Program-made: the position numbers and the translations under genes
NCBI GenBank assembly: GCA_000002445.1
Contig: CP000069.1
Span: 192,001-256,000, forward strand
Direction: 5' to 3'
Source: Trypanosoma brucei
Taxonomy: Eukaryota
Length of the DNA: 64,000 bases
The notes under the pieces: model-generated
Seen by the model: only the letters and a program-made list of their open reading frames with translations
Databases searched by the model: none
Told to the model about the DNA's origin: nothing
Shown here: positions 30,034 to 55,647 of the stretch, piece after piece
Layout of the letters: the number at the start of each line of letters is the position of its first letter
How positions within the stretch are numbered: the first letter of the stretch is position 1

Positions 30034-33000
30034 TTTGTGATTAATTTGGTAATTGCTTTGTGTGGTGTCGCTTTTTTTTTTTCTTTGTGGAGGGGAGGAG
30101 GAGGGATGTTGTATTTGTGTGCAGTTGTTTTCAAATTAATTATAAATTTGGTAACAAAAATTTCTGCAAATGTTGCTTTTGACTGTGTTTGAGCGTGGCT
30201 GTTGGGACGTTGACGGGGAATCGCCACGGCAGGGTCATTTCCCGAGAGGGTGCCGATACGTTGTGTTACTTTTTCATTTTCACATCGCGCAAGGATATGG
30301 GTATGCTACTATTAACAAATCATTTAGCTCCTATCTAGTACGCTCCGCTGCGGCAGAAAAATAAGGGGCCACGAACAAAATTCTATGTGTCTACGAGCAC
30401 TGTCAGCCTTCCAAGGACTCTCGGATCTCTATCGCAGCGAGTTTAGGTTAAAAGTGGGATGAAGAACTCCTCCTTCTGCTTGTTCCGGCCGAACATAGAG
30501 GCGTGACGGCAGCTCCTTCGTTTCCATCCACGGAGGACACAACATTCGCTGAATTATCTCTTAATGGAGCGTTTTTTTGTTTTTAAGTGTAAAATAACTG
30601 TCTGGTGTATATATATATATATATTGACTGAAAGAAGGAGTCGAGAGCGTCTTTTCCGAGTGCACTTTTCTCCGGCGGATCTCCCACTAACCTGTGGCGT
30701 AGGGCTATGGCTCCCAAAACACGTGTAAACACTACTGTATGATGTGGGTTATCGTGTTCATTGGCGTGGTAGTACTCTTTAATCCAGCGTATTCCATGTT
30801 TGATGTCATTGTGTATTTAGAAGCCCACTTTGGAGTAGATCCTTATCCCGGCCTCGGAGGGGATACTGCACACAGTTGCAACGCGTTGACGATGGAGCTC
30901 TGGGGCGCTGTTGGTTAGGTTTTCAAGTTTTGGAGTGACCCAATCTGTGTATTTTCTAGAGCTGAACCGTTAAGCTGCTGAGGGATGCATATTTATGCGG
31001 TCACTGTTAACTTCAGATGAGTTGTTCATCTGCTGAAGCCGTTTCCCCGGACGGTGGCTCTTTATCTCCCTATGTGTTATCCTGGCTTCACTTTGTAAGG
31101 CCGCTGCCTTCACTAGGTTTGTTTTCCTGGTGTCTGACCCTTTTCTGTGGAGGTATCCCGCCTTTCAATTTGCTTGCGATGTTGCATTCCCTGAACTGTG
31201 GCGGATTTGATTCTGTAGCCTTTTCCGTTGGGAGAGCCAAACTCTCAGTCATTCTCCAACCCTGTGTTTCACCACTTGTTTTTACTTTGTTTTTATACCT
31301 TCGTTTGATTCTGTAATTTTCGTTGCGCGTTTAGTCTGCGCCTACTCCGCTCTCACTGTTTATCTTCAGTTACTTGCTCACAGAAAGTCTGAGCAGATTC
31401 GTGGCAGCTTGTTCCCACTTTACGCATTTATCGACGGGCAAATTCTCGTTACCCTGCGAAGGTGCTCTGGGACTTGGTAAGTAATCAGCTTCTTTTGCTG
31501 GCACAACATTTCGGTTTGTTTCAGTAGCTTGGTGACGAGACGTTTTATCACCATCTGGGTTTTACTGTTTCTCGCCTGTGTCTACGTGGCCGTTGTTTTG
31601 TGGCTTAACCGTCCCTCTGGACTGAATGTTTGAAGCTATATTCATGAAGAACTGCGCGAGTTCCACGTATTGGTTCCTTCCTTTTCTGTTCCACTGCGCT
31701 CATCAACCCCATTCCTTCTCATCCTTGGTGTCCTCGAGTTTTTGGAGGAAGTGCCTGATCGTCTCTCGGTATTCTGTTCTTCCGTTGTTGCGAACCTCCC
31801 TTCACTTCCCTTCCCGACTGTGCACTATTTTTTGTTTTTGCACCACGTAAGTCTGGCTTGTCTGAGGAGTTTCAAATATTACCCTGAACGCCGCCTGCTT
31901 TCCGTTGTTATGTTCCACCTCTTTGTGCCTCCATCCGTAGTTGTTCCTGGGGCGATGACAATTCCAGGATCGTGCTACCGTGTGTGCGTTAGATTACCGC
32001 CCCCTGCATCAAGTAGGACATACTGAATCCGCGAAGGCTCTCCGGCTTTCGTGAGGTGTTTCTAGCAACTATCACCTTTGTTTCTTCAACTTCTTGATTT
32101 ATTGTCTTTTACTCATCTATTATCTCCCTTTTCTTTAGGTCCTGCATGTCAAAAAGTATACTGTCATATTGGGCGGGAAATCATATCATAACTGTGGTAT
32201 GGTTTTGAGGGTTGCAGTCTTTTACCGTGCTGGTTAGCTCCACGGCCTCCACCGAAAAGGGGAGAGCCCGAACGCTGGTTTCCCCATTTCCCCGTCTTTT
32301 CGATCAAGAACCCCTTGCTTTTAGTAGGTATTAGATCGGTAACTGGGAGATTGTAGCGGGTGTTCGTGTGTGGGGAGCGTTGCGCACTCGCACGGTTTTA
32401 AAATGGTTGTTATGTCAAAGCTGTTATTTCCCTTTTGTTCACTATGCCATTTGTTAACCATCTTCCAGTTGTTTGTTATACTCCTATCGATGGATTGTCA
32501 CTCCTTCAAATATGGTGCTGTAGTTTGAATACTCTCTTGGTGTGCCGCAAAGTGTGGGATACATAACGTGCCACAAGCTAGCGCTTCCAAGGGGGTTTAA
32601 ACTCGGGAACTGTGAGTGTGAGTCTCGAACCAATGCGATGGTTCTGGTCTGCGCTGAAGGACATTTTATAGGGCCCCCGGATCCTCCCTGTGCCCAACTC
32701 GGTGATGCTGAGGTCGATGAATTCCTTCGTTCGCTACGAAACAAAGCATTGGGTTTGGTGGCATTTAGTGCGGTGCCTTCGATGGTGTTGTGCTTTCCTC
32801 TCCTGGAATGTGCTGGCTCGGGTTAAGATTTTAGCGGGTGCGGGGGAATGCGGCCCAACTTTTTTGCGCGAAATCTCTTGCATTGACTTGCCGCGTAACC
32901 CATGGTGGTTTCGTCAGCCTGGTAGGAGCTGAGACAGCAGCATAATGGGTGGATTCTCGTATCCATTCGTGTGGGCATGCTCCCCACTTGCATGGGTTCC

Positions 33001-37295: not shown

Positions 37296-38660
37296 ATGAT
37301 GCACGAATTAGTGTTTATCATTGGGTTGTTTGTGGCTGTTTTATCTGTTTCTTCTCAGAGCGATTTGTCGAGACACAATTGGAGCATAATATCTAGAAAC
37401 CGGAGTGTGTTTACAAAACTCGTTAGTGAGCTCAACAACCACCACAGCATTGGTGAATTCGAGGCACTTTGCAAGATTTACAGAATCACACAAGCGGAGA
37501 CACCGAAGTCTTCCTTTAAGAATCGTGAGAAGGAAGCTGAGATTCTGAAGAAGTTGGAGGAGATGGTCAGTGAAACTGAGGCTGTGGGTGGTGATAAAGG
37601 TTCAAGTAAGTTGGGTAAAAGAACGACGGCATATCAGGAGATAAAGATACTTCTTGAGAAGGCGAAAAAGCTGAAGGAAGAAATAGAAGTAAATAGGACA
37701 AGATCGCTAAATGCAAGTCGTTCTGCTGAGGAAAATATGTTGAGAGCTGTGTATGGCGACGCTGTGGATGTGGCGAGAAATGAAAATAAAACTCTGGAGG
37801 AAGCCATGAGAGGAAACAAATCACTACTGTTCAACAGTGTTGATCATGCAAATATGAGTTGTGGTTCTTACGGAGACAAACTGGTTGGAAAGACACTGAT
37901 CAATGACTTTTTCTGCCTATGTGTGGGAGAGGCTATAGATGTACAAATAAGAAGCAATATGTTTTCGGGACTCGAGTTAAGCTCGAATTACCACCCTGTG
38001 TATAATGGGTTTAACTGTCCCTGCAAGGATGAAATAAGGAGACCCCAAAATGGAAGTTGGACTATGATGGCTGATTATTGCCCAAGCAACTATAATACTT
38101 GCGACCCTAGAAAGGTAAAATACAACCATACTGAGGCATGGGATGTGATTAGTAAAGCTTGCGTGTACAAAAATGTTGCATCGAATGTGAAAACTCTGAA
38201 GAGTGCACTAGCTCAGTTTGATGCGTTGGTGAATTTAGAGCAGGATAATTATCAAATGAAGGGTATTCTTGGGTACGCGGATATTTCAGAAAACACAAAT
38301 CGCACATGCAACGGTCATACTGCTGGATTCACGTGTGTCAGTTACAATTACACACTTGAAAATGGTGGAATTCCATGGTACAACCGCCTCACTAACGCCA
38401 CCAAGGAACTACAAGAAATGGCGAAGTATGCCAAAGAGGCTGACAGTCATCTTCATGAATTGGAAGAGTACCAACATGAGGCAGAGGAAATATATCTTGA
38501 AGTGAAACTTGGTGGTGATGCAGAGCTATGGAAGAGTAGCCGAGGTAAGGGTTACAGTGGAGGTGATGATACTGATGTAAATAATGATGGGCTCAACTAT
38601 ATAAATATTACAACTGACTTTCTTATATTATTGTTTTCATCTTTTATTTGTATATCTTAG
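37296..38660 (+). CDS. PAG: Procyclin-associated gene product (PAG family), diverged/mosaic paralogue
   Basis: 454-aa ORF collinear with the 457-aa PAGs. It is near-identical over most of its length, but has clustered substitutions at residues ~2-45 (MMHELVFIIGLFVAVLSVSSQSDLSRHNWSIISRNRSVFTKLVSEL) and ~213-240 (AIDVQIRSNMFSGLELSSNYHPVY), and GKGYSGGDD replaces GKGEGDGEGDD. Confidence 0.75.
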   Translation: MMHELVFIIGLFVAVLSVSSQSDLSRHNWSIISRNRSVFTKLVSELNNHHSIGEFEALCKIYRITQAETPKSSFKNREKEAEILKKLEEMVSETEAVGGDKGSSKLGKRTTAYQEIKILLEKAKKLKEEIEVNRTRSLNASRSAEENMLRAVYGDAVDVARNENKTLEEAMRGNKSLLFNSVDHANMSCGSYGDKLVGKTLINDFFCLCVGEAIDVQIRSNMFSGLELSSNYHPVYNGFNCPCKDEIRRPQNGSWTMMADYCPSNYNTCDPRKVKYNHTEAWDVISKACVYKNVASNVKTLKSALAQFDALVNLEQDNYQMKGILGYADISENTNRTCNGHTAGFTCVSYNYTLENGGIPWYNRLTNATKELQEMAKYAKEADSHLHELEEYQHEAEEIYLEVKLGGDAELWKSSRGKGYSGGDDTDVNNDGLNYINITTDFLILLFSSFICIS

Positions 38661-41600
38661 TTTGTGATTAATTTGGTAATTGCTTTGTGTGGTGTCGCTT
38701 TTTTTTTTTCTTTGTGGAGGGGAGGAGGAGGGATGTTGTATTTGTGTGCAGTTGTTTTCAAATTAATTATAAATTTGGTAACAAAAATTTCTGCAAATGT
38801 TGCTTTTGACTGTGTTTGAGCGTGGCTGTTGGGACGTTGACGGGGAATCGCCACGGCAGGGTCATTTCCCGAGAGGGTGCCGATACGTTGTGTTACTTTT
38901 TCATTTTCACATCGCGCAAGGATATGGGTATGCTACTATTAACAAATCATTTAGCTCCTATCTAGTACGCTCCGCTGCGGCAGAAAAATAAGGGGCCACG
39001 AGCCAAATTCTATGTGTCTACGAGCACTGTCAGCCTTCCAAGGACTCTCGGATCTCTATCGCAGCGAGTTTAGGTTAAAAGTGGGGTGAAGAACTCCTCC
39101 TTCTGCTTGTTCCGACCGAACATAGAGGCGTGACGGCAGCTCCTTCGTTTCCATCCACGGAGGACACAACATTCGCTGAATTATCTCTTAATGGAGCGTT
39201 TTTTTGTTTTTAAGTGTAAAATAACTGTTTGGTGTATATATATATATATATATATATATATTGACTGAAAGAAGGAGTCGAGAGCGTCTTTTCCGAGTGC
39301 ACTTTTCTCCGGCGGATCTCCCACTAACCTGTGCCGTAGGGCTATGGCTCCCAAAACACGTGTAAACACTACTGTATGATGTGGGTTATCGTGTTCATTG
39401 GCGTGGTAGTACTCTTTAATCCAGCGTATTCCATGTTTGATGTCATTGTGTATTTAGAAGCCCACTTTGGAGTAGATCCTTATCCCGGCCTCGGAGGGGA
39501 TACTGCACACAGTTGCAACGCGTTGACGATGGAGCTCTGGGGCGCTGTTGGTTAGGTTTTCAAGTTTTGGAGTGACCCAATCTGTGTATTTTCTAGAGCT
39601 GAACCGTTAAGCTGCTGAGGGATGCATATTTATGCGGTCACTGTTAACTTCAAATGAGTTGTTCATCTGCTGAAGCCGTTTCCCCGGACGGTGGCTCTTT
39701 ATCTCCCTATGTGTTATCCTGGCTTCACTTTGTAAGGCCACTGCCTTCACTAGGTTTGTTTTCCTGGTGTCTGACCCTTTTCTGTGGAGGTATCCCGCCT
39801 TTCAATTTGCTTGCGATGTTGCATTCCCTGAACTGTGGCGGATTTGATTCTGTAGCCTTTTCCGTTGGGAGAGCCAAGCTCTCAGTCATTCTCCAACCCT
39901 GTGTTTCACCACTTGTTTTTACTTTGTTTTTATACCTTCGTTTGATTCTGTAATTTTCGTTGCGCGTTTAGTCTGCGCCTACTCCGCTCTCACTGTTTAT
40001 CTTCAGTTACTTGCTCACAGAAAGTCTGAGCAGATTCGTGGCAGCTTGTTCCCACTTTACGCATTTATCGACGGGCAAATTCTCGTTACCCTGCGAAGGT
40101 GCTCTGGGACTTGGTAAGTAATCAGCTTCTTTTGCTGGCACAACATTTCGGTTTGTTTCAGTAGCTTGGTGACGAGACGTTTTATCACCATCTGGGTTTT
40201 ACTGTTTCTCGCCTGTGTCTACGTGGCCGTTGTTTTGTGGCTTAACCGTCCCTCTGGACTGAATGTTTGAAGCTATATTCATGAAGAACTGCGCGAGTTC
40301 CACGTATTGGTTCCTTCCTTTTCTGTTCCACTGCGCTCATCAACCCCATTCCTTCTCATCCTTGGTGTCCTCGAGTTTTTGGAGGAAGTGCCTGATCGTC
40401 TCTCGGTATTCTGTTCTTCCGTTGTTGCGAACCTCCCTTCACTTCCCTTCCCGACTGTGCACTATTTTTTGTTTTTGCACCACGTAAGTCTGGCTTGTCT
40501 GAGGAGTTTCAAATATTACCCTGAACGCCGCCTGCTTTCCGTTGTTATGTTCCACCTCTTTGTGCCTCCATCCGTAGTTGTTCCTGGGGCGATGACAATT
40601 CCAGGATCGTGCTACCGTGTGTGCGTTAGATTACCGCCCCCTGCATCAAGTAGGACATACTGAATCCGCGAAGGCTCTCCGGCTTTCGTGAGGTGTTTCT
40701 AGCAACTATCACCTTTGTTTCTTCAACTTCTTGATTTATTGTCTTTTACTCATCTATTATCTCCCTTTTCTTCAGGTCCTGCATGTTAAAAAGTATACTG
40801 TCATATTGGGCGGGAAATCATATCATAACTGTGGTATGGTTTTGAGGGTTGCAGTCTTTTACCGTGCTGGTGGCGGCTTTGCCGTCAGAATTCTTGCCGC
40901 ATACTTTGAGGTTGTATGTGCTATTCATGAATTTACGATATTCTTTTGCTATATCTTCTGAGCCAGCAGCGGCTTTGCCCGACGGAGCACAACAGCAGTC
41001 ATTTTCATTCAGCCTTTCCGCAACTGCCCTCCTCGCATATCATACTCACCGTCCACACAACATAACTTCCAATTTTATTGAAAAAGAAATTACACAACAG
41101 ATCTTGCTTGACATTTCCCCCCATATGCTGTGTCGTGTTTTACTTGGTCCTTAACCTCTGCCGCATCATTTTCTTTCTGCATCTATGTCTGACGTGCCTT
41201 TCTGCCATGCAAATGTTCAGTCATGCTCCGCGCTTACATTGCTCGTCGACCTTCGCCATGTCGCCATGTCAGCGTTGTATGCTCCTCGGTCTCCTATTTG
41301 AAACTTTGTGATATCCATCGCTGCCTCTTGTTTCGTCGGAAGTCAGGGATATATTTCACGTTCCTTCACCGCCTTGTCAGACCACGCAAGCACGTCCTGT
41401 ATGTTGCTCCTGAAGGTTGACCACGCCCTCTTTGGTAAGCCCCACCGTATTTCTCATTGCTTCGATGGTTATTTTGTAGTAATTTGTTCCCGTATCATCT
41501 CTCTGCCTCCCGTATGGGTCGTCACAAAATCCCTTCCGCATTTGGATGTTAGCGTGTTCGGCGGCGTATTCCTCTGACCTGACATTTTCCCCCGCTGTCT

Positions 41601-44600
41601 CCTCAATTTCCACACCTCTACGGTTGCACGCCCTTACATCCTTTGATCGTCTCCACTGAACTTCCCATAATTTTTTCCCCGCTTCTAGGATGTCTTCATG
41701 GCCTCCCGGCGTTTGGACTCAACGTATTGGCGAGGTTGCGGATGCTTACGACAAGTTTCATGGCAGTGGTGGAACCGAAAAACGCTACCTTTGCTGCTTG
41801 CCGTATTTTCGCGTTCCACGCCCCTGGTATCCTTGTCGTCCGCGGTCCTTTCCCCCGCGCCCTCGGCCGTTGTGGCCCCTTCTTTATTATATGGATGAAG
41901 TTTGGAGGTATGAGACTTTGGCGACACCGACGTTGGGTATGCTTTGGTAGGGCAAGGGCAAATTATGGTCTCTCTTCTTTGCTCCTCCGCCGTTTTAGCG
42001 TTCCTTTTTTCCACCCTCTCCACGGAAACTATTTTCATCGCTTTCTTCCGGTCTCGTGGCCCTGTCCTTGCACCCTTGACGGCGGGTTTCTACGCGTCGT
42101 TTTAGCTGGTGTTTCAGAAACTCAGTATTCGTGCGCAAGAGGCACCTTCGTGCATTTCCTTCTCCCAGTCTTATCCCTTCATCGCCATATTCACTGCTTC
42201 CCGCTGGAGTGTCGCATTTTCCACCACTTCCCAATGGCAGGGTCAAATCTTTCTTCCTATAGTGATAGAGGCAAATGTGTCACTTATACCAGTTTGTAAC
42301 TGGTTGTTCTTTGGTCCTTGTGAGCATTTCCTTGCACTCTCCCAGATTATTCCTAGGCTTCTTCGCCTCGTTTTGTTCATCGCTTCTGGTTTGAACCTCC
42401 CTCATGTCTGTTCGTATGTTTTTTAAAGTTTGTCACATTTCCGGGGAGTGCCCCGCTCACACAAAACACATTGATAGCATCCGTGGCGCACACGAGGGAT
42501 TTCACAGCATCTTTTAAAGCCTTCCCATGCGTCTGCCACTTCTGCCCACTCGTGTCCCTCAACTATGTCACTCATGGTTGATCCTTATCAGTGGACGATA
42601 AAGTTACATTCTGTGCCCATCACTGGATCGCGAACTCTCTCTGCCTTAGCCTCGGGGGCTATCAATAGCGTGCTTAATTCGTTGGCAAGCGCTTCGTTGT
42701 ATTGTTTCTCCTTTTCAACGCCTTCAATTTGGTATTTACACAATCGACATTTGCTGAAACACTTATCAGGGAGGGAGGCTGTTCCACAGGTCTCGCCAAG
42801 TTGTTCCGGGGGTGCGAATATGAAATTGTTAAAGGGCGAGATTTCTTTTATTCCGGCATGCGATCGCTTCTTTAGTAGAGACTCGATGTGACCGAGAAAG
42901 TTTCTCCTGCACGTGTTTGTCCCAATCCCAGCTTCGAGCGCAGCATATCCCTCGTTACGCTTCTGCTTTATGTCTCCCACCAAAACATCAATTTTACATA
43001 TTAGGTGTGTCATTCTGCAGTTGTTTCTTCCACTGCAATCTCATCTGTTATTGCACTGTCTTTCCAAACAACGTGGTGGAAGAAAATAAGCTGCATAGAA
43101 ATCACCTCATTCTTTTTACTGACCGTGAAAATCACCCTTCCATACGCGGCTCGGGATTCCATCATCCGCGCGACTCGGTCTTTCATTGTTTCCAGTAGCG
43201 TATTTAGCACCTTTTCAATTGGCACCGGTTCTGCACGATGACTGCATCCTAATATTCAGATGTCCCTTTAATCCTGTACTTTTCCATGTTGCCGAAGATT
43301 ATCGTTTCTGCAGTGGACTAACTGCCTAAACTCACCAGTTCATTTGTTGAAACTTTTCAGTCCGTCTTATTGAATATCCCTATTCTTTGCGGCGCATGAG
43401 CCTTCCTCCATTCGTCTTTTGCCTTTGCTTTTATACCCACCCGCGTATGGCAAATTTGTGTGCACTCTGGAGCCAATGTCCAAGGAGCTTTAAGTATGGA
43501 GTACACCTTGATTTTTGGTGTCGGAGCACCATCCCTCCACTGAATTCAGCCATTCAGGTATTGGATGACTTCTAGGATATTGCCGGTTTATTATGTCTGA
43601 AAAGCATCCTCTTATAGCGTTTGACATGGGGCGGTATTCCGTCGCCCTCTTGTTTGCCACTTTTCAAACAAATATCACTCGAGCTTATTTGGGCACACCT
43701 TGTTTTTGCGTGCTACGAAATCTCGGAAATCGTATGCGTTGTTTGGGGCTGTGTGCTTTCCACCCTCTCCCCGCTTGAAGTGTTGACGGAGAATCACTTA
43801 AAAGGAATGCCGTAGTTCATCTTTGCATGGATAAGTCCAGAGTGGAAGGCTGCAAACGGTTCCGTCTGGGGAGCCCTGTTCGGCTAGCACTACGGCATTG
43901 AGCGTCCGTAATCTTGTCCTTCCTAATCTTGTCGTTTGTTAAGCGTGCTTCGACGTTTTTTTTTCTTTTTGACGGAGGGCAAACGATGATGTTTTCTCAA
44001 GATCGCACTTCAATGACAGCATACTCTTTAAGGGTGGCTTGGCTGCATCATCAACCGGACGAAAGATCATTCGAGGAAGCGTGCGGTGAAACGAACGCTC
44101 GTTGTTACGGGATGGTGACGCGAAATTTGGCGGATATGCCGCGTGTTGGAAGAGAGAACAAAAGGCGCAGAGATTTGTGAATTACTGTGCCTCACCGTTC
44201 AGCCTGTCAACAACAGATGGGGGCACGTTTTGGCAGCGTCCACAAAGCCCAGGCTGGAGGTTGTTGAACGCGAGAGCGGCACCCCCGCCGTCGAGGGGCT
44301 GAAGACAAGACGTTATGTGAGCATTTTATCTCGGACCAGTGAAAGCGTAGGTGTGCCACAGGATGGGGTCCACTTTGTTCTCCACCACCTCGTGCAGAGG
44401 AAATATGTTGAAGGTGCGGAGTCAAGCGATCAACATCGTGCCGTCGGTGCTGAAATAGTGAAAAAGGGAGAACAACATGCTGAAGGAGGCGCGGCACACA
44501 ACCGGATGATGGAGCTCAACGGCGGATTTGTTTGGGCGATATCACCGGCAAAGTGTGCCCCCGAGGACTACGCGTCTGTTTGGGGTTAGCTACTATAAAG

Positions 44601-46071
44601 GATCAACGCCGCCTCATGGGTGAATGGGGCGCTGCAGTGCACAGGGTACCCCCGCCGCGGCTGGGAGAAAAGTTCCGAATGCAAGCCTCTCCGCCCGGTG
44701 ACGAATACAGCTGAACACGACATGGGGCATGGGGCAAAGGTGAATATGGTTGAATACTTGATAGTGGGGGTTGCGCAGGCGAGGGCGTATAAAAATCAGG
44801 TGCGCAAAGAGGCTGGTCAAAACGCCTGGCACTTTCAGGAATCATGGAAAAAAAAGCATGAGGATCATGAACGGTGGAAGCGGACAATATGAGCACGGGA
44901 AAATGGGGCGAGGGGAGGGTTGACAACAGGGAACAATACCCTTGCTGCCCCACAAAACGTATTGCGGGACGGCGTCTCGCAGAAGGGGGAAATATCCATC
45001 CACTGCGCAACTGACTCGGCAAGTCGCTCAAACACTGTAAAACACTGCCCCAATCGAGGCGACCACGTCTCGGCAGGAGGATGACCACTATTCCATTTCT
45101 TCCACATCAAGAGGTTCCTCCACATGTTAGCCACGTCCACGTGTGTGTGCGTATTTGTAAACCCCAGAAGTCCAGTCCACATAATAGCGGGCCCGAGTTC
45201 ATGCCCAAACCCTCTCGGAAACTTACGTTGTACAGCATGCGCTAATGCCGGTATCCATGACGGGCCCCGCCGCAGCTGCCGTGTGGGATGCTAAAAGTGT
45301 AAGAGGCACTAAAAAGCGACCCATTCGTTTGTTGTTGTTTTTTTCTGTTTTCTTTTCAAATCTTTGTGTCGTGAAATTATACGCGTATCCGAAGAGGCTC
45401 CCAACATCCTTATCCCTTCCCCGAGGGCGTGCATCGCTCAGAAGCACTAAAGCAAGTACCACTTCTCCTACGGGCAGCACCTGGTCTGATTGTTGGAGAA
45501 AACCCACACCAACAGTTGTGGGGGTGGTTGTGTGTATTTGGCCGCGTTCGGATGCCCCGGAACATCTCTGCGTTAAGTTTCTTCACCGGAAAGCGGCCAC
45601 CAGATTCATAAAATGCTCCCACCCGAGCGGCCACAATATCGGGAAGAGAGGCATCACGCCGGTGTGATGCGTATTAGAAGAGGGAAGCTGCAACACTTTT
45701 GTGGCTTCAGATTAAAAAAAAAAAGCGGGGGAGAATGGCAGCACCTACTGGAAACCTGCGGTAGAGGGAGCAAAACAACAACAAGAGGGGAATATGGCGG
45801 CAGTGCGGGCAAAGGGATCCCGCGCACCGGCAGCCGTTTATTTCTCTCCTTTACTTTCAGATATTCAGTAGCAAAGTTGCAGCGAAAGTGAAAGTTCTAC
45901 GGGTACTCGTGGGCGCTGCGATACGCATTTCGTACAAAAAGAAGTTTTCTCCCCTCTAGCATCTTCATCGCTATCCTGGGGTTAAACTAAAACGCATCTG
46001 TTGGAATAAAATTAGATTGAAAAAAACACACGCATAAATGTTCACGACTCTTAGGTTTAACGATGTGCAAC

Positions 46072-47094
46072 CTACGCCGTGTTGGGTGCAAGAGGAATGC
46101 CAGCAGAACCGCCATCCTCGATGCCGCATTCGCTACTTCCGCGGCGGATGAGAAAGTAACCGTCCATTCCCCACTCGGTGTTCCAGCTGTTGGCAATCTT
46201 CCAGTACGGCACTCCGTTTGATGTGCCCCACCCAACGAGCCTCACCGCATGTCCTCCGAGATATTGTCCTGAAACGTGGTGGTAGACGCCGCTGTTGTAG
46301 GCGATGAAGTCTTCGTAGACATCAAACGCCACCTCAAATGGACCGCGGAAGAACAACTCACGCATGTAGTCATCCTCTCCTTGAAGCGCATAGCTCGTCC
46401 AGGAACGGTAGTTGACAACGGGGATTGTCGGGTCATCGCACGTGTAATTGCACTTGGGCGTGTCAAAGTTGAACTGAGAACAGGGAGGGTACCCATTTTT
46501 GCTTTTGCTGTGGTGTGAGCAATGGGGAAATGGGTAGGGTTGGCAGTAGTCCGAAACGAGGCCTGTTGAGCTAAAGTACGCCCACGCCCTATCCGGATCG
46601 CCACCATTACAGCCATCGCCACAATCACTGCAGCACGCAAGCAAGTCACCTGCTGAGATATGGACGTCCTGCACACCCCCCATCGTACAAAATCGGTCGG
46701 ACATGGCTGAGGCCGCAGCGACTGCCCAGCAGGAGCCACAGGCGGACTGATCTGCAATTTGTGGGATGGTGGGGCAGTTGGGCCAAGCTTCAGCGGAATC
46801 GAAGCTGCTGGGAAGCGGGGCACGTGCCTCTTCCTCGGTGAATCGCCTCTTCGGAAGGATGCTGGCGTTATTATTCTTTTTAATAACACCGTTGAGCCGC
46901 TTCGCCTCGCGCAATGTTATGTTTTGCATGACGCCATCGTACTTCGCCTTCCAAATCCCGCGGTTGAGGCGGTTCACGCGGTCGACGAAAGCCTTGGAGA
47001 GGACGGGCGCGTCTTCAGCAACGAGGGCGGCGTTTACGGCGACTACAGCCGTCGAAGCGATACAAAATGTGATGCAGGCACGCATGAGATGCAT
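46072..47094 (-). CDS. CatB: Cathepsin B-like cysteine peptidase (papain family C1)
   Basis: 340-aa ORF with a signal peptide (MHLMRACITFCIASTAVVAVNA), a propeptide, the active-site Cys in QSACGSCWAVAAASAMSDRF, an occluding-loop region with multiple Cys/His (CSHHSKSKNGYPPC), the catalytic His in GGHAVRLVGWG and the Asn in NSWNTEWG. The 340-aa length matches TbCatB. Confidence 0.9.
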   Translation of the reverse strand: MHLMRACITFCIASTAVVAVNAALVAEDAPVLSKAFVDRVNRLNRGIWKAKYDGVMQNITLREAKRLNGVIKKNNNASILPKRRFTEEEARAPLPSSFDSAEAWPNCPTIPQIADQSACGSCWAVAAASAMSDRFCTMGGVQDVHISAGDLLACCSDCGDGCNGGDPDRAWAYFSSTGLVSDYCQPYPFPHCSHHSKSKNGYPPCSQFNFDTPKCNYTCDDPTIPVVNYRSWTSYALQGEDDYMRELFFRGPFEVAFDVYEDFIAYNSGVYHHVSGQYLGGHAVRLVGWGTSNGVPYWKIANSWNTEWGMDGYFLIRRGSSECGIEDGGSAGIPLAPNTA

Positions 47095-47438
47095 GTGTCA
47101 CCGGATTTGTACGGGTCTGCAAGTTCGATGTTGTCGTTGCCCCTCTGTGGAGCTGTCGTATACACTTTTTTTTTCTCCCTTAAAAAGAAAAAAACAGAAA
47201 GGAAAATCACTTGTTTTGCCCCCGGGTTGCTCAGATTAAACAGTGGAGGGGTTGGGTGGAGAGGGAATGGGGAGAGGATGTGAAGGAAGATAGGGGGAAT
47301 CATGCGGGTAAATAGCCTCCAATACTCAGTTTCGTCCATGAAAACCTGCGTTCGTATCTAATAAGGAGGAAATGTGGTGAGAGGAGGGGTGATGCGTTCC
47401 AGAGCGCACCCAGCGCTCAATGCGAGGTCAGTGGAGCT

Positions 47439-47804
47439 TCATGTCCAAAGACACCTTTCATTTACTTTACATTTTTGCAAGTCAACCCTCTCTAGTAAAC
47501 TTTCCGGGAACCCGCCCTCGTCAACAATGCCATCTCGCAACTTGATGTAGTATGGCCAACGCAAACCCTCAATCATTACGCGGTAAGTAGCCGCATCGTC
47601 GGCGTCCCCCCTTCCGTTTTGATTTGGTGCACGCGTGATGTCGGCATTAATGTAAACGGCAGATTCCGGTGCAGCGTTCGTTGGGCGGGAGAAAACGAAA
47701 CGGTACACGCCTGGTGTGGACGGGTGCTCGGAGGCTGTGAATGTGTAGCGCATCCCTTGTTCGTCGAATGCCGCTGCAAGGCGTTGCAGCTCGTTCAGTT
47801 CCAT
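47439..47804 (-). CDS. Small hypothetical protein (~121 aa)
   Basis: The ORF track shows a 180-aa frame, but its first 59 residues are low-complexity (HTHSLSPPPPPPREL) and look like UTR. The in-frame Met at 47804 (MELNELQRLAAAFDEQGMRYTF...) is the likelier start. No family recognised. Confidence 0.4.
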   Translation of the reverse strand: MELNELQRLAAAFDEQGMRYTFTASEHPSTPGVYRFVFSRPTNAAPESAVYINADITRAPNQNGRGDADDAATYRVMIEGLRWPYYIKLRDGIVDEGGFPESLLERVDLQKCKVNERCLWT

Positions 47805-48266
47805 GCTACCGTCGCAGTTACAGTAGTAGTTGCTGTTGTCGCCGTCAAGGCTACGCGTTGTGGGATATAAACAAAGCAATTCACGAGGAGGAGGAGGAGG
47901 GGGAGAGAGAGAGTGTGTGTGTGTGTAGAGATAATGTAAAAGGATTGATAGATTCAAGTTTATCAGTTCGACAAGGGGCAAAAGTTTAAGGAAAAGGGAT
48001 CATTGCTTGTTCCGCTGTACCGACAGCGTGGATCGCGCGCTCAGTGTGAGATGAAGGGAAACCAGGAGCAGGCTCGGTAGATGATTTTCCTGAGTGCCAT
48101 ACGCAGGAGACGAGTACGAGCTTCACTACTTTACCAACACTGGGAACACTTATAGCTCACTTTTTCATCTGTTGGCTCTACGGCAGAAGTTTACCACTCG
48201 ACAGATGCATCCACTGTACACACGCCCCCCACTCTTGGTTATGGAACCGTTCGTGGCGGTGAGTCA

Positions 48267-50935: not shown

Positions 50936-51232
50936 TTAATACGGATTGTTGCGGTCCTCATCATTACGACGGAACTTATAGGGACGATAACTGAGATGAT
51001 TCTCCACGAGGAACAAATTCCGCGAGCGCTGCGAATACCACGTGCCTAATTGAAAAAGTGGTGACCACCACGGCAAATACCACGGCGCGAGCCACCGCTC
51101 CTTCACATGCAACCACCGGTCGACGTAATGCTGACGTTCAGCGTAAAGTGTGAGGGCCTTCAGGTTTGGGCGGAAGTGATCCGCCGGATTTGACCAAAAA
51201 TCCGACATAACCGCTTCGATGTTTTCAGTCAT
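50936..51232 (-). CDS. Small hypothetical protein (98 aa), Trp/Tyr-rich, possible LYR-like motif
   Basis: A 98-aa ORF ending with a basic tail (KFRRNDEDRNNPY). It contains a LKALTLYAERQHYVDRW segment reminiscent of LYR-motif proteins. The assignment is weak. Confidence 0.35.
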   Translation of the reverse strand: MTENIEAVMSDFWSNPADHFRPNLKALTLYAERQHYVDRWLHVKERWLAPWYLPWWSPLFQLGTWYSQRSRNLFLVENHLSYRPYKFRRNDEDRNNPY

Positions 51233-51239
51233 GTGGGGC

Positions 51240-51689
51240 CACTGTGGTTTTTTTTCTTCTGTCCTTCCTCTTTTTTTTTTAATTTTTAAAATTCGGGTTG
51301 CTTATGATGCCCTGCAAATATAATATGTATATATTCAATAATAATAATAATATAATTGATTAATATACATACATGTGTGTAAGTATGGTGTGCCATTTAC
51401 GGCAGAGTAAAAACGCATATAATGTTGAGAAGATGTAAAATTGGGAGAAAAAAAAATGCAACAGACTTGAGGAGTTACAGATTTTTTTTACGAAATGTAA
51501 CACAGTGAAACAGGGCCAAAAAAAAAAAACAAAACAAAATTACAAAAAAAAAAGAAGAGGGGGACGAATGGAAGACGTGTATGCGATTGAAACACACAAA
51601 CACACCGGTGAGAAATGGGGGAGAGGGGGTGAAAGTAAAAAAAAAAAGGTACATCAAACACACAAACTTTTCGTTTCATATCTTCATTT

Positions 51690-51724
<35 letters not shown>

Positions 51725-53590
51725 CATCGCTTTCTTCCGTTTCTTTTTTTTTAAATCTTTAAATAACGGAACGAGTGTGCATAATTTTATTGTACGCACT
51801 TCGCTCCACTCACTCTGTTTCTTTTCTTTTTTTTCCTTTTGCGTTTGCTTTGAGTTGCCGTGAGAATGAGGGAAATGACGGAGGGGAAATAATAATGATG
51901 AAAAGGATGATGTGACAAGCGGATGGTGGCCCGTTATTATTATTATTATTATTACTATTTTTCTTTTTTCTTTTTTCCCTCAGGATTAAAGGAGGGGGAG
52001 GGAGAAAAGGAAGAGGGACGTGTGATCACCTCATTTTTTTAATATATATTTATATATATATTTTGTGTTCCTCCCTCCGCCGCTTTTCCCTTTATTTTCA
52101 TAAAAGCAATAATACCAATGATAATAATAGTAATAATAATACCAATAATTTAAATAAAAGAGGAAAGAAAAAAAAGAAAGAAAAGAAACCAAGGCGATCT
52201 GCCGAGAGCTTTTTGGAGCTTTGCAACATTTCCCTCCCTTCCCAACCAAAAAGAAAAAAAAGAAAAAAAAACCGCTCACTTCATTTTATTTTAAACTTTT
52301 CTTTTAAATAAAACAATCCCATTTCATACGACCTCTCCCCCTCCTCTCTTTATTATTATTATTATTATCATTATTATTCCTTCACCATATCCTTTTCTTT
52401 TCTTTTTTTTTTGTAGATTTGCATTTTCCCTTTTCCCCATAATTACATTTACTTCGGCGGCAACAGCGGGAAAAAAGAAGACAAAAACCAAACAAAAACA
52501 AATGGAAAAAAAACCAATAAATAAATAAAGGAGATAAGTAAGTGATAATATGTCATGAGATGAATATATGTTTGGTAGAAAAGGAGGGGACAAAAAACAA
52601 CAACAACAAAAAAAAAAAAGAAAAAAAAATCATCAACAACAATAACATCAACACAAAACCCGTGCAAATAAACAATAACACCAACAAAAGAAACACGACG
52701 CTCAAAACCAAAGAAAAAGTACACACGAAACAACAAACAGACAAAAAAAAACAGAAAAGGAGGTGAGAAAAAGGGCAGAGGAAGTTTATATTATTATTAT
52801 TATTATTTAAAAGGTCGGCCCCGCTTTTGCTTTATATATATAAATATATTATTTAATTTATTTTGTTTTGTGCATGTGAGTTCCATGAGGCACACTTACC
52901 CGCTGGCCCTTCCTTCACTCCCCTTTGATATTCATTCCTCATTCATTCATTTAATTATTTTTTCTTGTTTTTTTTTAAAAAAATTTCCCCCTCTACACTG
53001 ATTTAAAATAAATATATAATATATGTACATATATTATTTCATACACTCCGCATAGCTGTCCATCCTCATTTCATTTTGTTTTTTCTCGTTCCGTCATTCT
53101 CTCCGATATCCACACGGCTACAAAAAAAAAAGAAAAGAAAAGAAGAAAAGAAAAGAAAAAAAAAAACAAAAGCACACACACAGATCAAAAATAAGGGGGG
53201 GGGAAACGTAAAAAAAAAAAAAAGACTGAAGGAATAATTAAAAAGAAAAAAAAATTAAACATAATAATAAAGAAGAAAAGAAACAAACAACAAGCGACAA
53301 GGAAAAACAAAAAAAAACAACAAAGAAGTTGGTAATTGACTAGAGCCGAAAATAGCAGAGGTGGTGGGATTAAAAGAAAAAACAAACACAGAACAAAAAG
53401 AAAAAGAAGGAAAGGAAAAATCAAAAAGACTTCTTTTTTTGTTTTTTCTTTTTTTTCCCTCTCCTCCTCCTCCTCCTCCTCTCCTCCTCTCGCAGAAACA
53501 TATATATATATATATATATTTTCTTTCTTTCCTCCTTTCTTTTTCCCTTACCTTCTTTTTATTCACTTCACCTTTTCCCTCATTCCCGCC
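51240..53590. repeat. AT-rich low-complexity intergenic tract with multiple microsatellites
   Basis: (TA)n runs at ~51694-51722 and 53502-53520, (ATT/TTA)n at ~51935-51960 and 52352-52375, long poly-A/poly-T and (GAAAA)n-like runs (e.g. 53125-53165), and (CCT)n at 53461-53490. All ORFs here are low-complexity artefacts. Confidence 0.8.
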
Positions 53591-53591
53591 A

Positions 53592-54668
53592 TCAGCTATG
53601 ACCCTTTACCGCTTGTGTCATTATTGGAGAAGCCGGAAAGGCGGCATTTTTGCTTCCCGTGAAGTTACTGAAGGCATGACCGCCACCACCACCGCTGCCA
53701 GGTATTGTTGTGCTGTTGGGGGTCCCTGCTGACGAGGAATCTTCACAGAGCCCATAAAGCACGCCATTGTTTGCTACAGGTATATTGGAGTTAAAACAGT
53801 CACGCAGCAATTTAAAATAACAATGGCCCGTCAGCAACGAGTCGCTGCCCGCCTGATGAGCCATGCCGAAACGCCGCACGCGGAGGCTATCGGCAAGGTG
53901 ATCTAATCCCAATGAGTGCGTTAACTCGGTGGAACGCAAGAGATATTTGATATCATACACGCACGGGAAAAGGGCATGGAAGGTTTGTAGGAAATCCTCT
54001 TCCTTTTCTGGTAGGTCTTTTCCACCCACTACTTTGATCAGGTATCCAAAGTCGTAACCGGCGTGGAAGGCCAACCAGCGAATGTCGGGATTTAACACGA
54101 GTCCGCTGGAGATGAGCAGCTCTGCGAAGTGCGTCACCTCCACGCCATACTCGGAGAAGTAATCGAAGTTAATGCCACCATGACACAACAACTGAATACT
54201 ATCCTGCGCGTACACATCCTCTGTGAGGCAGAAGCGGAAGTTGAACTGCCACGTGCAGCAGTTCTCGGGAACCTCGCCCTTCTCATTGAGAAGTGTAATG
54301 CCTAGCTGAATCATCTTCAGTAAATTCACATTGCACCGCAGCGTTTGGTAATAGAACTCGTGCGTGGATTTGAAGTTACCGACAGGTTTCGCTACTACAC
54401 CGGGAAACTCAGTATCCATGGCCACAAATGGGTAGTCTTTGATAAGCGAACGGATTATACCAAACTCCTGCTCTAAGTTATCCTCCCACACATCGCGAAT
54501 CATTGGTGATTTACTAAGTGATGGAATGAGGGAAACATTTCCCGCCTTAAGAGCAGCCGATGGAAAACGTTGATGGGGTTGAGGTTGCGGTTGCGGTTGC
54601 TGCTGTGCGTAGGCTCCATAATGTGTCCCGCCACCATACTGCATCATTTTCCCGTTTCCCGTTTCCAC
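53592..54668 (-). CDS. CAF1: CAF1 deadenylase (CCR4-NOT complex subunit CAF1/POP2, DEDD 3'-5' exonuclease)
   Basis: 358-aa ORF. It shows the DEDDh exonuclease motifs of CAF1: FVAMDTEFPGVV (Asp-Glu), FNFRF, and HAGYDFGYLIK / AHQAGSDSLLT (His/Asp). It also has a Gln/Pro-rich N-terminus and a Gly/Ser-rich C-terminus. Confidence 0.85.
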   Translation of the reverse strand: METGNGKMMQYGGGTHYGAYAQQQPQPQPQPHQRFPSAALKAGNVSLIPSLSKSPMIRDVWEDNLEQEFGIIRSLIKDYPFVAMDTEFPGVVAKPVGNFKSTHEFYYQTLRCNVNLLKMIQLGITLLNEKGEVPENCCTWQFNFRFCLTEDVYAQDSIQLLCHGGINFDYFSEYGVEVTHFAELLISSGLVLNPDIRWLAFHAGYDFGYLIKVVGGKDLPEKEEDFLQTFHALFPCVYDIKYLLRSTELTHSLGLDHLADSLRVRRFGMAHQAGSDSLLTGHCYFKLLRDCFNSNIPVANNGVLYGLCEDSSSAGTPNSTTIPGSGGGGGHAFSNFTGSKNAAFPASPIMTQAVKGHS

Positions 54669-54707: not shown

Positions 54708-54743
<36 letters not shown>

Positions 54744-55647
54744 TAGATTTATTTATTTATTTTTTTTCGTTTTGTTATTATTTAAAATGAAACAAACAAA
54801 AAAACAAACAACAACAAAAAAATTCGTTCCTTTTCTTTTTGTTTCGTTACTACCTTCTGCAACTTTTCCTTCACCACGGAAGGTGGATTTAGTGTGTTTG
54901 GACGCTTAAACTCCTTTCAGTGACTGCGGAACAAATAAGCAAAAACAAAAACAATACCAATAAAAATAGAAGAAGATTGAAGTGAAGGAGAAAAAGACAA
55001 ACAAATAAGAGAAGCACAGTGTGCCATAAGAAGATGGAATAATAACAGATAAGATATTAAATGGAGGTGTCGCCCGTACGAAAGTGAGAGAAAATTTACG
55101 TCAAATGAACCGCACGAACCAAAGATGTCGCGCCACACGAGTGCACAACCAAGAGAAGCGCCGAAAAGTTTGTACGCATACACCGCTGTGCATGACCGTA
55201 TAGATGTGTAACACACGCCTAAAAAAATTGCTTCAGAGTTTACCCTCATTCCTCATAAGGGAACATGCACATGCACATAAATGTATACAAATGTATATAT
55301 ATAAATGTATATATGTGTGATTGTGACGACATTGAGGGGAAGAGAAAGGAGCCGTGCAGATGCATCAAGTTAGCGAATCGGGTAGCTCAATGCAACAGAG
55401 GGAAAATAACATTTACTACATCGAACATCACCAACCTCGCAACATGCAGCGCCTCCGCTCTTCCAAACCCATAGACCAACTGCATCCTCCCACGCCTTCC
55501 TTCTCTCTCTTTTTTTTTTTCATTATGCCGTGTTTGAGCTGCTGCCACTTGGGTGTGAAGAGGCCAAATCATGCGGCAGCATCACCGCAAAATAATACAA
55601 CAGCCTCCAAAATATTTCTCTCTTTTTTTTTTTTTTTGCACATACAC

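What the first reader, a model, noticed from the sequence alone, without database searches (positions are those of the whole stretch)
40874..46071. ~5 kb convergent strand-switch zone with no confident gene between the procyclin array and the minus-strand gene cluster
All genes left of ~40.8 kb are on the + strand and all genes right of 46.07 kb are on the - strand. Polymerase I transcription from the procyclin units must therefore terminate, or collide with antisense Pol II transcription, in this interval. Overlapping sense and antisense transcription has been described for procyclin loci. The interval contains only compositionally odd ORFs (41643-42299, 44143-44589, 44603-45088) and begins with a truncated fourth copy of the repeat-unit start (40844-40873). 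It could hold a degenerate PAG/GRESAG2-type pseudogene, termination elements or a small RNA.
Basis: partly seen in the sequence, partly recalled or inferred. Interest (0 to 1): 0.5.

Follow-up and report, generated by a model that had tools for sequence, protein, structure and literature searches.

The report
Known procyclin-locus transcription termination zone
This 5 kb gap is the previously studied stretch of Trypanosoma brucei chromosome 6 where RNA polymerase I transcription of the procyclin genes ends, facing an oncoming polymerase II gene cluster; it holds no convincing protein gene or small RNA, so it is real but not new.

Summary
The window is T. b. brucei TREU927 chromosome 6, the GPEET/EP3/PAG3/GRESAG2.1 procyclin locus, triplicated in this strain. 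It is followed on the minus strand by cysteine peptidase C (Tb927.6.560).

Genes converge on 40872-46071, and that stretch is unique within the window.

Three corrections apply:
- The public annotation does place one gene here, Tb927.6.550 (41742-42299, +). It has non-coding codon usage, pN/pS near 1 and no homologue outside T. brucei.
- The "truncated fourth copy" is a 30-bp direct repeat at 40842-40871. It already flanks the single-copy unit in other strains and is the likely crossover site of the triplication.
- I found no PAG3/GRESAG2-like relic, tRNA, Rfam RNA or terminator-like motif.

Strand composition flips at about 43.95 kb. To the left lies the pyrimidine-rich tail of the Pol I unit. 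To the right lies the tail of the Pol II unit beyond CPC.

Published work places a three-element Pol I terminator, with no recognisable motif, 2-3 kb downstream of GRESAG2.1. That corresponds to about 40.7-41.7 kb here. Published work also shows Pol I read-through at this locus when TbMex67 is perturbed.

Verdict: already known, low interest.

One side finding is not described in the papers I read. The left half (40.9-44.0 kb) is a gene-conversion-like mosaic, and about 3 kb of it has a second copy in a T. equiperdum assembly.

The parts
40842..40871 (.). 30-bp direct repeat TTGAGGGTTGCAGTCTTTTACCGTGCTGGT. It marks the end of the tandem procyclin array and is the probable unequal-crossover site of the TREU927 triplication.
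   Evidence: Exact copies lie at 17379, 24798, 32205 and 40842 in the window. There are two copies (524, 9106) flanking the single unit in T. equiperdum L009.
40872..43950 (+). Unique, pyrimidine-rich (+ strand) tail of the Pol I procyclin unit. This is the attenuation/termination zone. The published terminator position ('2-3 kb downstream of GRESAG2.1') corresponds to about 40.7-41.7 kb.
   Evidence: The + strand is 54-68% pyrimidine from 39.6 to 44.0 kb, and 15 poly-Y tracts of at least 10 nt lie on + between 38.6 and 44.0 kb. The terminator position comes from PMC2731899. No hairpin/T-run excess was found (8 against 11.6 expected). There is no CCCTTTT on + here.
41742..42299 (+). Annotated ORF Tb927.6.550 (185 aa, 'T. 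brucei spp.-specific protein'). It is most likely a chance ORF in a pyrimidine-rich transcribed spacer.
   Evidence: Identified. Codon score is -0.17. pN/pS is 0.6-1.6. Only T. brucei orthologues were found, and there is no Pfam hit. The enclosing 238-codon stop-free run has P about 0.03 against shuffles.
42588..43013 (-). 141-aa ORF called as a gene on the T. b. gambiense DAL972 chromosome; an orphan that is not conserved as an ORF.
   Evidence: A gene is called at this position in L008. HMMER against 1.84 billion representatives finds only itself. pN/pS is 0.7-0.8. There is a stop at codon 74 in L010 and a frameshift in L009. Codon score is +0.04 to +0.07, not significant.
40136..43163 (.). 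About 3 kb segment that has a second, diverged copy (96%) in T. equiperdum IVM-t1 'chromosome 4'. That copy lies between an ingi fragment plus a VSG gene and NrkA. Differences between strains within this segment form a mosaic of sharp-edged patches.
   Evidence: Copy and context: L010. Patchy 10-25% divergence and incompatible site patterns. Assembly contigs end at 40136 (L007), 40842 (L012), 43290 (L007) and 43332 (L001).
43848..44040 (.). Compositional strand-switch point, including the T9CT5 tract at 43956-43970. It is deleted in T. b. gambiense.
   Evidence: Cumulative pyrimidine excess peaks at 43.8-44.0 kb. The deletion in L008 is about 190 bp and sits next to a patch that is 25% divergent at 43678-43847.
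44041..46071 (-). Tail of the minus-strand Pol II unit beyond CPC: the CPC 3' UTR followed by sequence with minus-strand poly-pyrimidine tracts. It varies little between strains.
   Evidence: The + strand is only 35-46% pyrimidine at 44.0-45.0 kb and 45.6-45.8 kb. Twelve poly-purine tracts lie on + (poly-Y on -) between 44148 and 45792. Divergence between strains is 0.8-0.9% with no clustering.
44865..45182 (-). 105-aa ORF, annotated 'hypothetical protein, unlikely' in T. b. gambiense.
   Evidence: Identified. Three of four comparisons show 3 synonymous and 0 non-synonymous changes (the same three sites in those loci is my assumption), while L002 shows 0 and 2. Codon score is +0.04 from the ATG and -0.01 stop-to-stop. 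No Pfam hit.
45245..45667 (+). 140-aa ORF. The 136-aa counterpart in T. b. gambiense is annotated 'hypothetical protein, unlikely'.
   Evidence: Identified. Codon score is -0.04 to -0.06. No Pfam hit.
46072..47094 (-). Cysteine peptidase C (cathepsin B-like, Tb927.6.560). It is the first confident gene of the converging Pol II unit and forms the right boundary.
   Evidence: Exact match to XP_845179 and to PDB chains 3HHI/7E3E. pN is about 0 between strains.

Best explanation
The interval is the convergent boundary between two transcription units on T. brucei chromosome 6. One is the Pol I-transcribed GPEET/EP3/PAG3/GRESAG2.1 procyclin unit on the + strand. The other is a Pol II polycistronic unit on the - strand whose last confident gene is cysteine peptidase C.

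What the sequence shows:
- From the end of GRESAG2.1 to about 43.95 kb the + strand looks like a sense-strand spacer. It is pyrimidine-rich, carries many poly-Y tracts and has chance ORFs, including the annotated Tb927.6.550.
- From about 44.0 kb to CPC the same is true of the - strand.

What published experiments show:
- Pol I is stopped by several dispersed, motif-less elements that act together. They begin 2-3 kb past GRESAG2.1, which is about 40.7-41.7 kb here.
- TbMex67 bound to chromatin is needed to prevent read-through.

What I infer:
- Pol II coming the other way runs past CPC. There are further minus-strand poly-Y/splice-type signals down to about 44.1 kb.
- Pol II then ends near the composition switch, presumably through the H3.V/H4.V/base J system that marks T. 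brucei termination sites.
- No protein or structured RNA product is needed for the function of the interval.
For: - Identity of the locus. Triplication in TREU927: PMC4288722 and PMC2854126.
- Convergent layout.
- Composition switch at 43.8-44.0 kb and poly-Y tract polarity.
- No coding signal: codon scores; pN/pS near 1 and broken ORFs in some strains; ORF lengths near chance; no homologues beyond T. brucei; no Pfam domains.
- No tRNA or Rfam RNA.
- No repeats, hairpin/T-run excess or CCCTTTT motif. This agrees with the published 'no clear sequence motif'.
- Published terminator position and the '?' hypothetical gene plus CPC in Figure 1 of PMC2731899.
- Pol I read-through on chromosomes 6 and 10 in the TbMex67 dominant-negative line: PMC10250216.
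- H3.V at PAG-associated convergent switch regions: PMC2731899 discussion.
Against: - I could not read Berberof et al. 1996. The mapping of the three terminator elements onto window coordinates rests on one sentence in PMC2731899 and on the assumption that strain differences do not shift it.
- No nascent-RNA, Pol I ChIP, H3.V or base J data could be examined for these coordinates, so the Pol II end point is inferred from composition only.
- The exact switch point is deleted in T. b. gambiense, so it cannot be an essential element in itself.
- Tb927.6.550 stays open in all five sequences, and its stop-free run is marginally long (P about 0.03). Poly(A)+ reads map to it. A small lineage-specific protein is therefore not excluded.
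Confidence: 0.8

Rival explanations
1. Tb927.6.550 (41742-42299, +) is a real T. brucei-specific protein-coding gene and the last gene of the Pol I unit. On this reading the interval is partly an ordinary gene.
For: It is annotated in TREU927, DAL972 and T. equiperdum. The ORF is intact in all five sequences despite 3-19 nucleotide differences. The stop-free run of 238 codons has P about 0.03 against shuffles. A poly-Y tract and an AG lie just upstream at 41671-41688. The transcript was detected and changed in poly(A)+ RNA-seq (PMC7952579).
Against: The codon score of -0.17 to -0.20 is typical of non-coding frames; 81% of null ORFs score as high. pN/pS is 0.6-1.6. There is no homologue outside T. 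brucei and no domain. The + strand here is pyrimidine-rich, which by itself depletes stop codons.
Confidence: 0.1
2. The left half is the decayed remnant of a minus-strand gene (about 42.6-43.25 kb) that once ended the Pol II unit. It would be a pseudogene rather than a dedicated terminator.
For: Minus-strand stop-free stretches at 43013-43255 and 42591-43040 have the best codon scores of the left half, +0.115 and +0.04. Only 0.7% and 10% of null ORFs score as high. The minus strand is purine-rich here. The 141-aa ORF is called as a gene in DAL972.
Against: There is no homologue in 1.84 billion representative proteins and no Pfam hit. pN/pS is 0.7-0.8, with a stop or frameshift in L010 and L009. 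The scores are not significant after 26 tests. A word-index search with concatenated fragments found nothing, but that search did not even recover the query's own cluster, so it is a weak negative.
Confidence: 0.07
3. The segment 40136-43163 is a member of a dispersed, sequence-defined boundary element family. Its copies sit at transcription-unit borders and are kept similar by gene conversion, as proposed for PAG-like sequences.
For: There is a second copy with unrelated flanks (ingi, VSG, NrkA) in T. equiperdum IVM-t1. Differences between strains are strongly clustered (maximum 16-48 per 100 nt against 7-12 expected; no random placement out of 5000 reached the observed value), and only in the left half. 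Site patterns are incompatible with a single tree. Some patches are shared between gambiense chromosome 6 and the chromosome 4 copy. Independent assemblies break at the segment's edges.
Against: Only one extra copy was seen, in one long-read assembly that also carries 1-nt indel errors (CPC is frameshifted in L009). No second annotated copy exists in TREU927 or DAL972. I could not search the TREU927 or Lister 427 genomes. The segment has no similarity to PAG3 or to the shared PAG 5' UTR present in the window. No function has been tested for the second copy.
Confidence: 0.12

Closest known systems
[quoted passage not shown] 1996 (Mol Cell Biol 16:914), as summarised in Haenni et al. 2009 (PMC2731899)
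   Same: It is the same locus and the same position: downstream of GRESAG2.1 on chromosome VI, before the converging unit with CPC. Both lack a recognisable motif. I likewise find no repeats, hairpin/T-run excess or known terminator motif.
   Different: Nothing differs in kind. In TREU927 the unit is triplicated, so only the third copy abuts the unique terminator region. I could not place the three published elements at base resolution.
Chromosome X procyclin strand-switch region (PAG1 silencing elements, 'T region', GU2 overlap), Haenni et al. 2009 and Liniger et al. 2001
   Same: In both, a Pol I procyclin unit converges on a Pol II unit. Both have a transcribed spacer with only small or doubtful ORFs. 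Both show attenuation by dispersed elements, and Pol I read-through when TbMex67 is perturbed (PMC10250216).
   Different: According to PMC2731899 no sequence relationship exists between the chromosome VI terminator and the chromosome X downstream regions. The interval here has no similarity to the PAG3/PAG1-type 5' UTR in the window.
Generic T. brucei convergent strand-switch regions / Pol II termination sites marked by H3.V, H4.V and base J (PMC4721609, PMC7055916, PMC11229358)
   Same: The gene layout is convergent, strand composition flips, and there are no genes at the centre.
   Different: One of the two converging polymerases is Pol I, which applies only to the procyclin loci. Chromatin marks could not be checked here.
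Leishmania rDNA Pol I terminators T1/T2 with the CCCTTTT motif and stem-loops (PMC6562600)
   Same: Both are sites of Pol I termination in a kinetoplastid.
   Different: The CCCTTTT motif is absent from the + strand at 40872-44000, and hairpin/T-run sites are not enriched.

Membership tests
Convergent strand-switch region of a kinetoplastid chromosome | Coding strand changes from + to - with the two gene clusters pointing at each other | tested here: met
   ORF layout. Gene identities. Pyrimidine-skew flip at 43.8-44.0 kb.
Convergent strand-switch region of a kinetoplastid chromosome | Enrichment of H3.V, H4.V and base J at the termination site | not testable with these tools
   No ChIP or J-IP data were accessible. 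PMC2731899 reports, as a personal communication, H3.V at the PAG-associated convergent switch regions.
Procyclin PARP A / GPEET-PAG3 Pol I terminator (Berberof 1996) | Lies downstream of GRESAG2.1 in the chromosome VI procyclin unit, 2-3 kb past the gene | tested here: met
   GRESAG2 (XP_845177) ends at 38660. Counting 2-3 kb further gives 40.7-41.7 kb, inside or at the start of the interval. The position statement comes from PMC2731899.
Procyclin PARP A / GPEET-PAG3 Pol I terminator (Berberof 1996) | Stops Pol I in reporter and run-on assays | not testable with these tools
   This is a published experimental result. The primary paper is not held in the library.
PAG-like sequences at strand-switch regions (Haenni 2009) | Nucleotide similarity to the shared PAG1/2/3 5' UTR (0-640) or to the PAG3 ORF region | tested here: not met
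   Both query regions are present in the window in three copies. blastn of 38661-47200 against the window found no match to them. tblastn with the PAG3 ORF gave a best E of 0.21.
GRESAG2/ESAG2 (VSG_B-domain) pseudogene | Detectable protein-level similarity to GRESAG2.1 or to Pfam VSG_B | tested here: not met
   tblastn with GRESAG2.1 gave a best E of 1.0. GRESAG2.1 itself hits VSG_B at 3.7e-24, while no interval fragment does.
Small structured RNA gene (tRNA, snoRNA, other Rfam family) | Match to a tRNA model or to an Rfam covariance model | tested here: not met
   ARAGORN found 0 genes in the window. cmscan of 38000-48000 at E<=1 found 0 matches.
Protein-coding gene (Tb927.6.550) | Codon usage of the organism, purifying selection, and homologues beyond the species | tested here: not met
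   Codon score is -0.17 against +0.04 to +0.16 for real genes. pN/pS is 0.6-1.6. Only the T. brucei cluster was found. The ORF is nevertheless intact in all 5 sequences.

The most novel reading that the evidence does not exclude
The terminator-bearing segment (about 40136-43163) is not locus-specific. It would be one member of a small dispersed family of boundary elements, unrelated in sequence to the PAG-like elements, that has been copied to at least one other transcription-unit border (next to a VSG/ingi island upstream of NrkA). The copies would exchange sequence by gene conversion. That would make it a sequence-defined, portable polymerase barrier in trypanosomes.
Probability: 0.1. Interest if true: 0.55.

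Novelty: already known. Interest (0 to 1): 0.15.

Why it matters
The procyclin loci are the only chromosome-internal protein-coding units transcribed by RNA polymerase I. How Pol I is stopped before it invades neighbouring Pol II units is therefore a real question. For this locus it has already been addressed experimentally, by terminator mapping in 1996 and TbMex67-dependent read-through in 2023.

This check adds little beyond housekeeping:
- The annotated gene Tb927.6.550 is probably not coding.
- The array ends at a 30-bp direct repeat.
- The terminator side of the boundary evolves as a mosaic, while the Pol II side is ordinary.

Only the possible second copy of the terminator segment would change how the element is viewed, and that rests on a single assembly.

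Tried and rejected
- **Degenerate PAG3/GRESAG2 pseudogene.** tblastn with all window proteins and tblastx against the rest of the window gave nothing better than E about 0.1. Rejected.
- **Small RNA.** ARAGORN and Rfam at E<=1 found nothing. Rejected.
- **Terminator-like hairpins, the Leishmania CCCTTTT motif, and tandem or inverted repeats.** No enrichment.
- **Minus-strand relic gene.**
  - The word-index protein search with concatenated fragments found nothing, but it also missed the query's own cluster, so it is a weak negative.
  - The exhaustive HMMER search with 42591-43040(-) returned only itself.
  - Pfam found nothing.
- **Plus-strand ORF 44119-44586.** It has a coding-like codon score, but only a T. 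equiperdum orthologue was found.
- **Logan contigs as transcript evidence.** L002-L007 and L012 carry no spliced-leader sequence. Their ends sit at repeat boundaries or at a genomic A-run, and one (L006) has a 34-nt non-genomic head with restriction sites. I do not use them as RNA evidence.
- **Reading Berberof et al. 1996.** The paper is not held. The supplement of Haenni 2009 is not held either.
- **Fetching TREU927 chromosome 4 around NrkA to test for the second copy.** TREU927 is not in the gene-position index.
- **Structure prediction.** Not attempted. Orphan ORFs with five near-identical sequences would give uninformative models.
Full report
**Identity of the window**

- Exact look-up of ORF products shows that 46072-47094(-) is cysteine peptidase C of T. 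b. brucei TREU927 (XP_845179, Tb927.6.560; also PDB 3HHI/7E3E).
- 37296-38660(+) is GRESAG2 (XP_845177).
- 41742-42299(+) is the annotated 'hypothetical protein Tb927.6.550 / T. brucei spp.-specific protein' (XP_845178).
- The GPEET and EP translations are evident.
- The window is therefore the chromosome 6 procyclin locus.
- Self-BLAST shows three tandem units of about 7.4 kb ending at 40871. This matches the published statement that EP3/PAG3/GRESAG2 is triplicated in TREU927, with GPEET only before the last unit (PMC4288722; PMC2854126 lists a 7402-bp unit in 3 copies).

**The observation**

- All large ORFs left of 38.7 kb are on +. All from 46072 rightwards are on -.
- 40872-46071 has no other copy in the window.
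- The 'truncated fourth copy' is an exact 30-mer at 40842-40871 that also starts each unit (17379, 24798, 32205).
- In T. equiperdum, which has a single unit, the same 30-mer occurs once on each side of the unit (L009 524 and 9106).
- It is thus a pre-existing direct repeat, and the triplication probably arose at it by unequal crossing-over. That last step is my inference.

**Is there a gene?**

Public annotations place ORFs here: Tb927.6.550 in TREU927; the 185-aa orthologue (named 'T. brucei spp.-specific protein'), a called 141-aa gene with no name on record, and 105- and 136-aa ORFs labelled 'hypothetical protein, unlikely' in DAL972. I tested them four ways.

1. Codon usage.
   - A codon log-likelihood trained on nine confident genes of the window gives +0.04 to +0.16 bits/codon in frame for each gene left out in turn. 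All five other frames score negative.
   - Tb927.6.550 scores -0.17, and its 238-codon stop-free frame scores -0.20. That is like 81% of null ORFs.
   - Only 43013-43255(-) (+0.115) and 44119-44586(+) (+0.084) stand out. With 26 ORFs tested this is not significant.
2. Substitution pattern. I compared T. b. gambiense (L008), two T. equiperdum assemblies (L001, L009), the paralogous copy (L010) and Logan contigs (L002, L007).
   - Tb927.6.550 has pN/pS of 0.6-1.6.
   - The 141-aa ORF has pN/pS of 0.7-0.8 and is broken in L009 and L010.
   - CPC, as a control, has almost no non-synonymous change.
3. ORF length. Only the 238-codon run is marginally long (P about 0.03 against dinucleotide shuffles). 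All others are within chance.
4. Homology.
   - Pfam finds nothing.
   - HMMER over 1.84 billion representatives with 42591-43040(-) finds only itself.
   - Tb927.6.550 and 44119-44586 find only T. brucei orthologues.
   - Poly(A)+ RNA-seq reads do map to Tb927.6.550 (PMC7952579). This shows transcription, not coding.

I conclude that no ORF in the interval is a confident protein gene.

**Other candidate contents**

- No similarity to the window's PAG3, PAG 5' UTR or GRESAG2.1.
- No tRNA.
- No Rfam match at E<=1 over 38-48 kb.
- No notable direct, inverted or tandem repeats.
- Hairpin/T-run sites are not enriched, with 8 found against 11.6 expected.
- The Leishmania rDNA terminator motif CCCTTTT is absent from the + strand at 40872-44000.

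**Anatomy**

- The + strand is 54-68% pyrimidine from 39.6 to 44.0 kb. It drops to 35-46% at 44.0-45.0 kb.
- Cumulative pyrimidine excess peaks at 43.8-44.0 kb.
- Poly-Y tracts of at least 10 nt are on + up to 43970. The last is T9CT5 at 43956-43970.
- From 44148 to 45792 there are twelve poly-purine tracts on +, which are poly-Y on the - strand.
- In trypanosomes poly-Y tracts on the sense strand direct trans-splicing and coupled polyadenylation (established knowledge, restated in PMC2731899).
- I therefore read 38.7-43.95 kb as the transcribed tail of the + unit, and 46.07-44.0 kb as the tail of the - unit. The CPC 3' end is probably at about 45.8-45.9 kb, just upstream of the minus-strand tracts at 45641-45792. 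This reading is inference.

**What is known about function**

- Haenni et al. 2009 (PMC2731899) state that the chromosome VI units consist of four genes.
[quoted passage not shown] 1996). No clear motif was identified, and no related sequence exists downstream of the chromosome X units.
- Their Figure 1 shows a '?' hypothetical gene and CPC in the flanking unit. These correspond to Tb927.6.550 and Tb927.6.560.
- With GRESAG2 ending at 38660, the terminator falls at about 40.7-41.7 kb. That is where the tandem array ends and the unique interval begins.
- Pozzi et al. 2023 (PMC10250216) used nascent RNA and Pol I ChIP-seq. [quoted passage not shown] They report this on chromosome 10 and also on chromosome 6.
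- Pol II termination at convergent regions is tied to H3.V, H4.V, base J and the PJW/PP1 complex (PMC4721609, PMC11229358).

**A side finding: mosaic evolution and a second copy**

- The two halves of the interval evolve differently.
  - Against TREU927, the right half (44.04-47.2 kb) differs by 0.8-0.9% in gambiense and T. equiperdum, without clustering.
  - The left half (40.87-43.85 kb) differs by 2.4-5.1%, in sharp-edged patches.
- Examples of patches:
  - 29 differences in 200 nt at 42.6-42.8 kb in gambiense.
  - 50 differences in 200 nt at 43.6-43.8 kb in gambiense.
  - 37 differences in 200 nt at 42.8-43.0 kb in L010.
- The maximum number of differences per 100 nt is 16-48, against 7-12 expected. 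No random placement out of 5000 reached the observed value.
- Site patterns across five sequences are mutually incompatible with a single tree.
- Gambiense lacks about 190 bp spanning the composition switch, including the T-tract.
- T. equiperdum IVM-t1 carries a second copy of 40136-43163 (96% identity) on 'chromosome 4'. It lies between an ingi fragment, a 509-aa VSG gene and NrkA.
- Several independent assemblies break at the edges of this segment.
- The simplest reading is gene conversion among two or more diverged copies.
- Caveats:
  - I could not test whether TREU927 has the second copy.
  - That T. equiperdum assembly has single-base indel errors; CPC is frameshifted in L009.
  - This part is therefore a lead, not a result.

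**Verdict**

The feature is real, and its main interpretation is right. It is the already characterised Pol I termination / convergent strand-switch zone of the chromosome 6 procyclin locus. I rate it as already known, with low interest. A small residual possibility remains that the terminator segment belongs to a dispersed boundary-element family.

Noticed in passing
L010 8464-11423 (T. equiperdum IVM-t1 CM010675.1), equivalent to window 40136-43163: A second, 96% identical copy of the terminator-side segment, including the Tb927.6.550 ORF. It sits in an unrelated context: an ingi fragment, a 509-aa VSG gene on the opposite strand, then NrkA about 3.6 kb downstream. It could be a real dispersed copy or an assembly artefact.
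   Followed up: partly
window 17379-17408, 24798-24827, 32205-32234, 40842-40871; L009 524 and 9106: An exact 30-bp direct repeat flanks the single procyclin unit in T. equiperdum and separates the three units in TREU927. It is the likely site of the unequal crossover that triplicated EP3/PAG3/GRESAG2.
   Followed up: yes
window 43678-44040 versus L008: T. b. gambiense DAL972 has a deletion of about 190 bp that removes the compositional strand-switch point and its T-tract. Next to it is a patch that is 25% divergent from TREU927.
   Followed up: partly
window 47439-47981 (-): This ORF lies between CPC and the 596-aa conserved hypothetical gene. It has a coding-like codon score (+0.084) and corresponds in position to a 121-aa gene called in T. 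equiperdum and gambiense. It was unintentionally part of my null set, which makes that null conservative.
   Followed up: no
window 51000-54000: A marked AT-rich trough (GC 0.31-0.39) lies inside the minus-strand unit. (TA)n runs occur at about 51689-51721 and 54711-54747, and a matching (TA)13 at 39235-39261. T. equiperdum L001 is only 93% identical at 51577-52179.
   Followed up: no
L006 1-34 (Logan ERR7929163 contig): The first 34 nt do not match the genome and contain GTCGAC and GGGCCC sites directly fused to the CPC 5' region. This suggests a cloned construct in that sample. The ERR79291xx contigs should not be read as native transcripts.
   Followed up: no
L009 14327-15184 (T. equiperdum IVM-t1): CPC is annotated as a truncated 285-aa protein because of a 1-nt gap relative to all other strains. 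This is most likely a long-read assembly indel error, and it is a caution for every frameshift seen in L009 and L010.
   Followed up: partly
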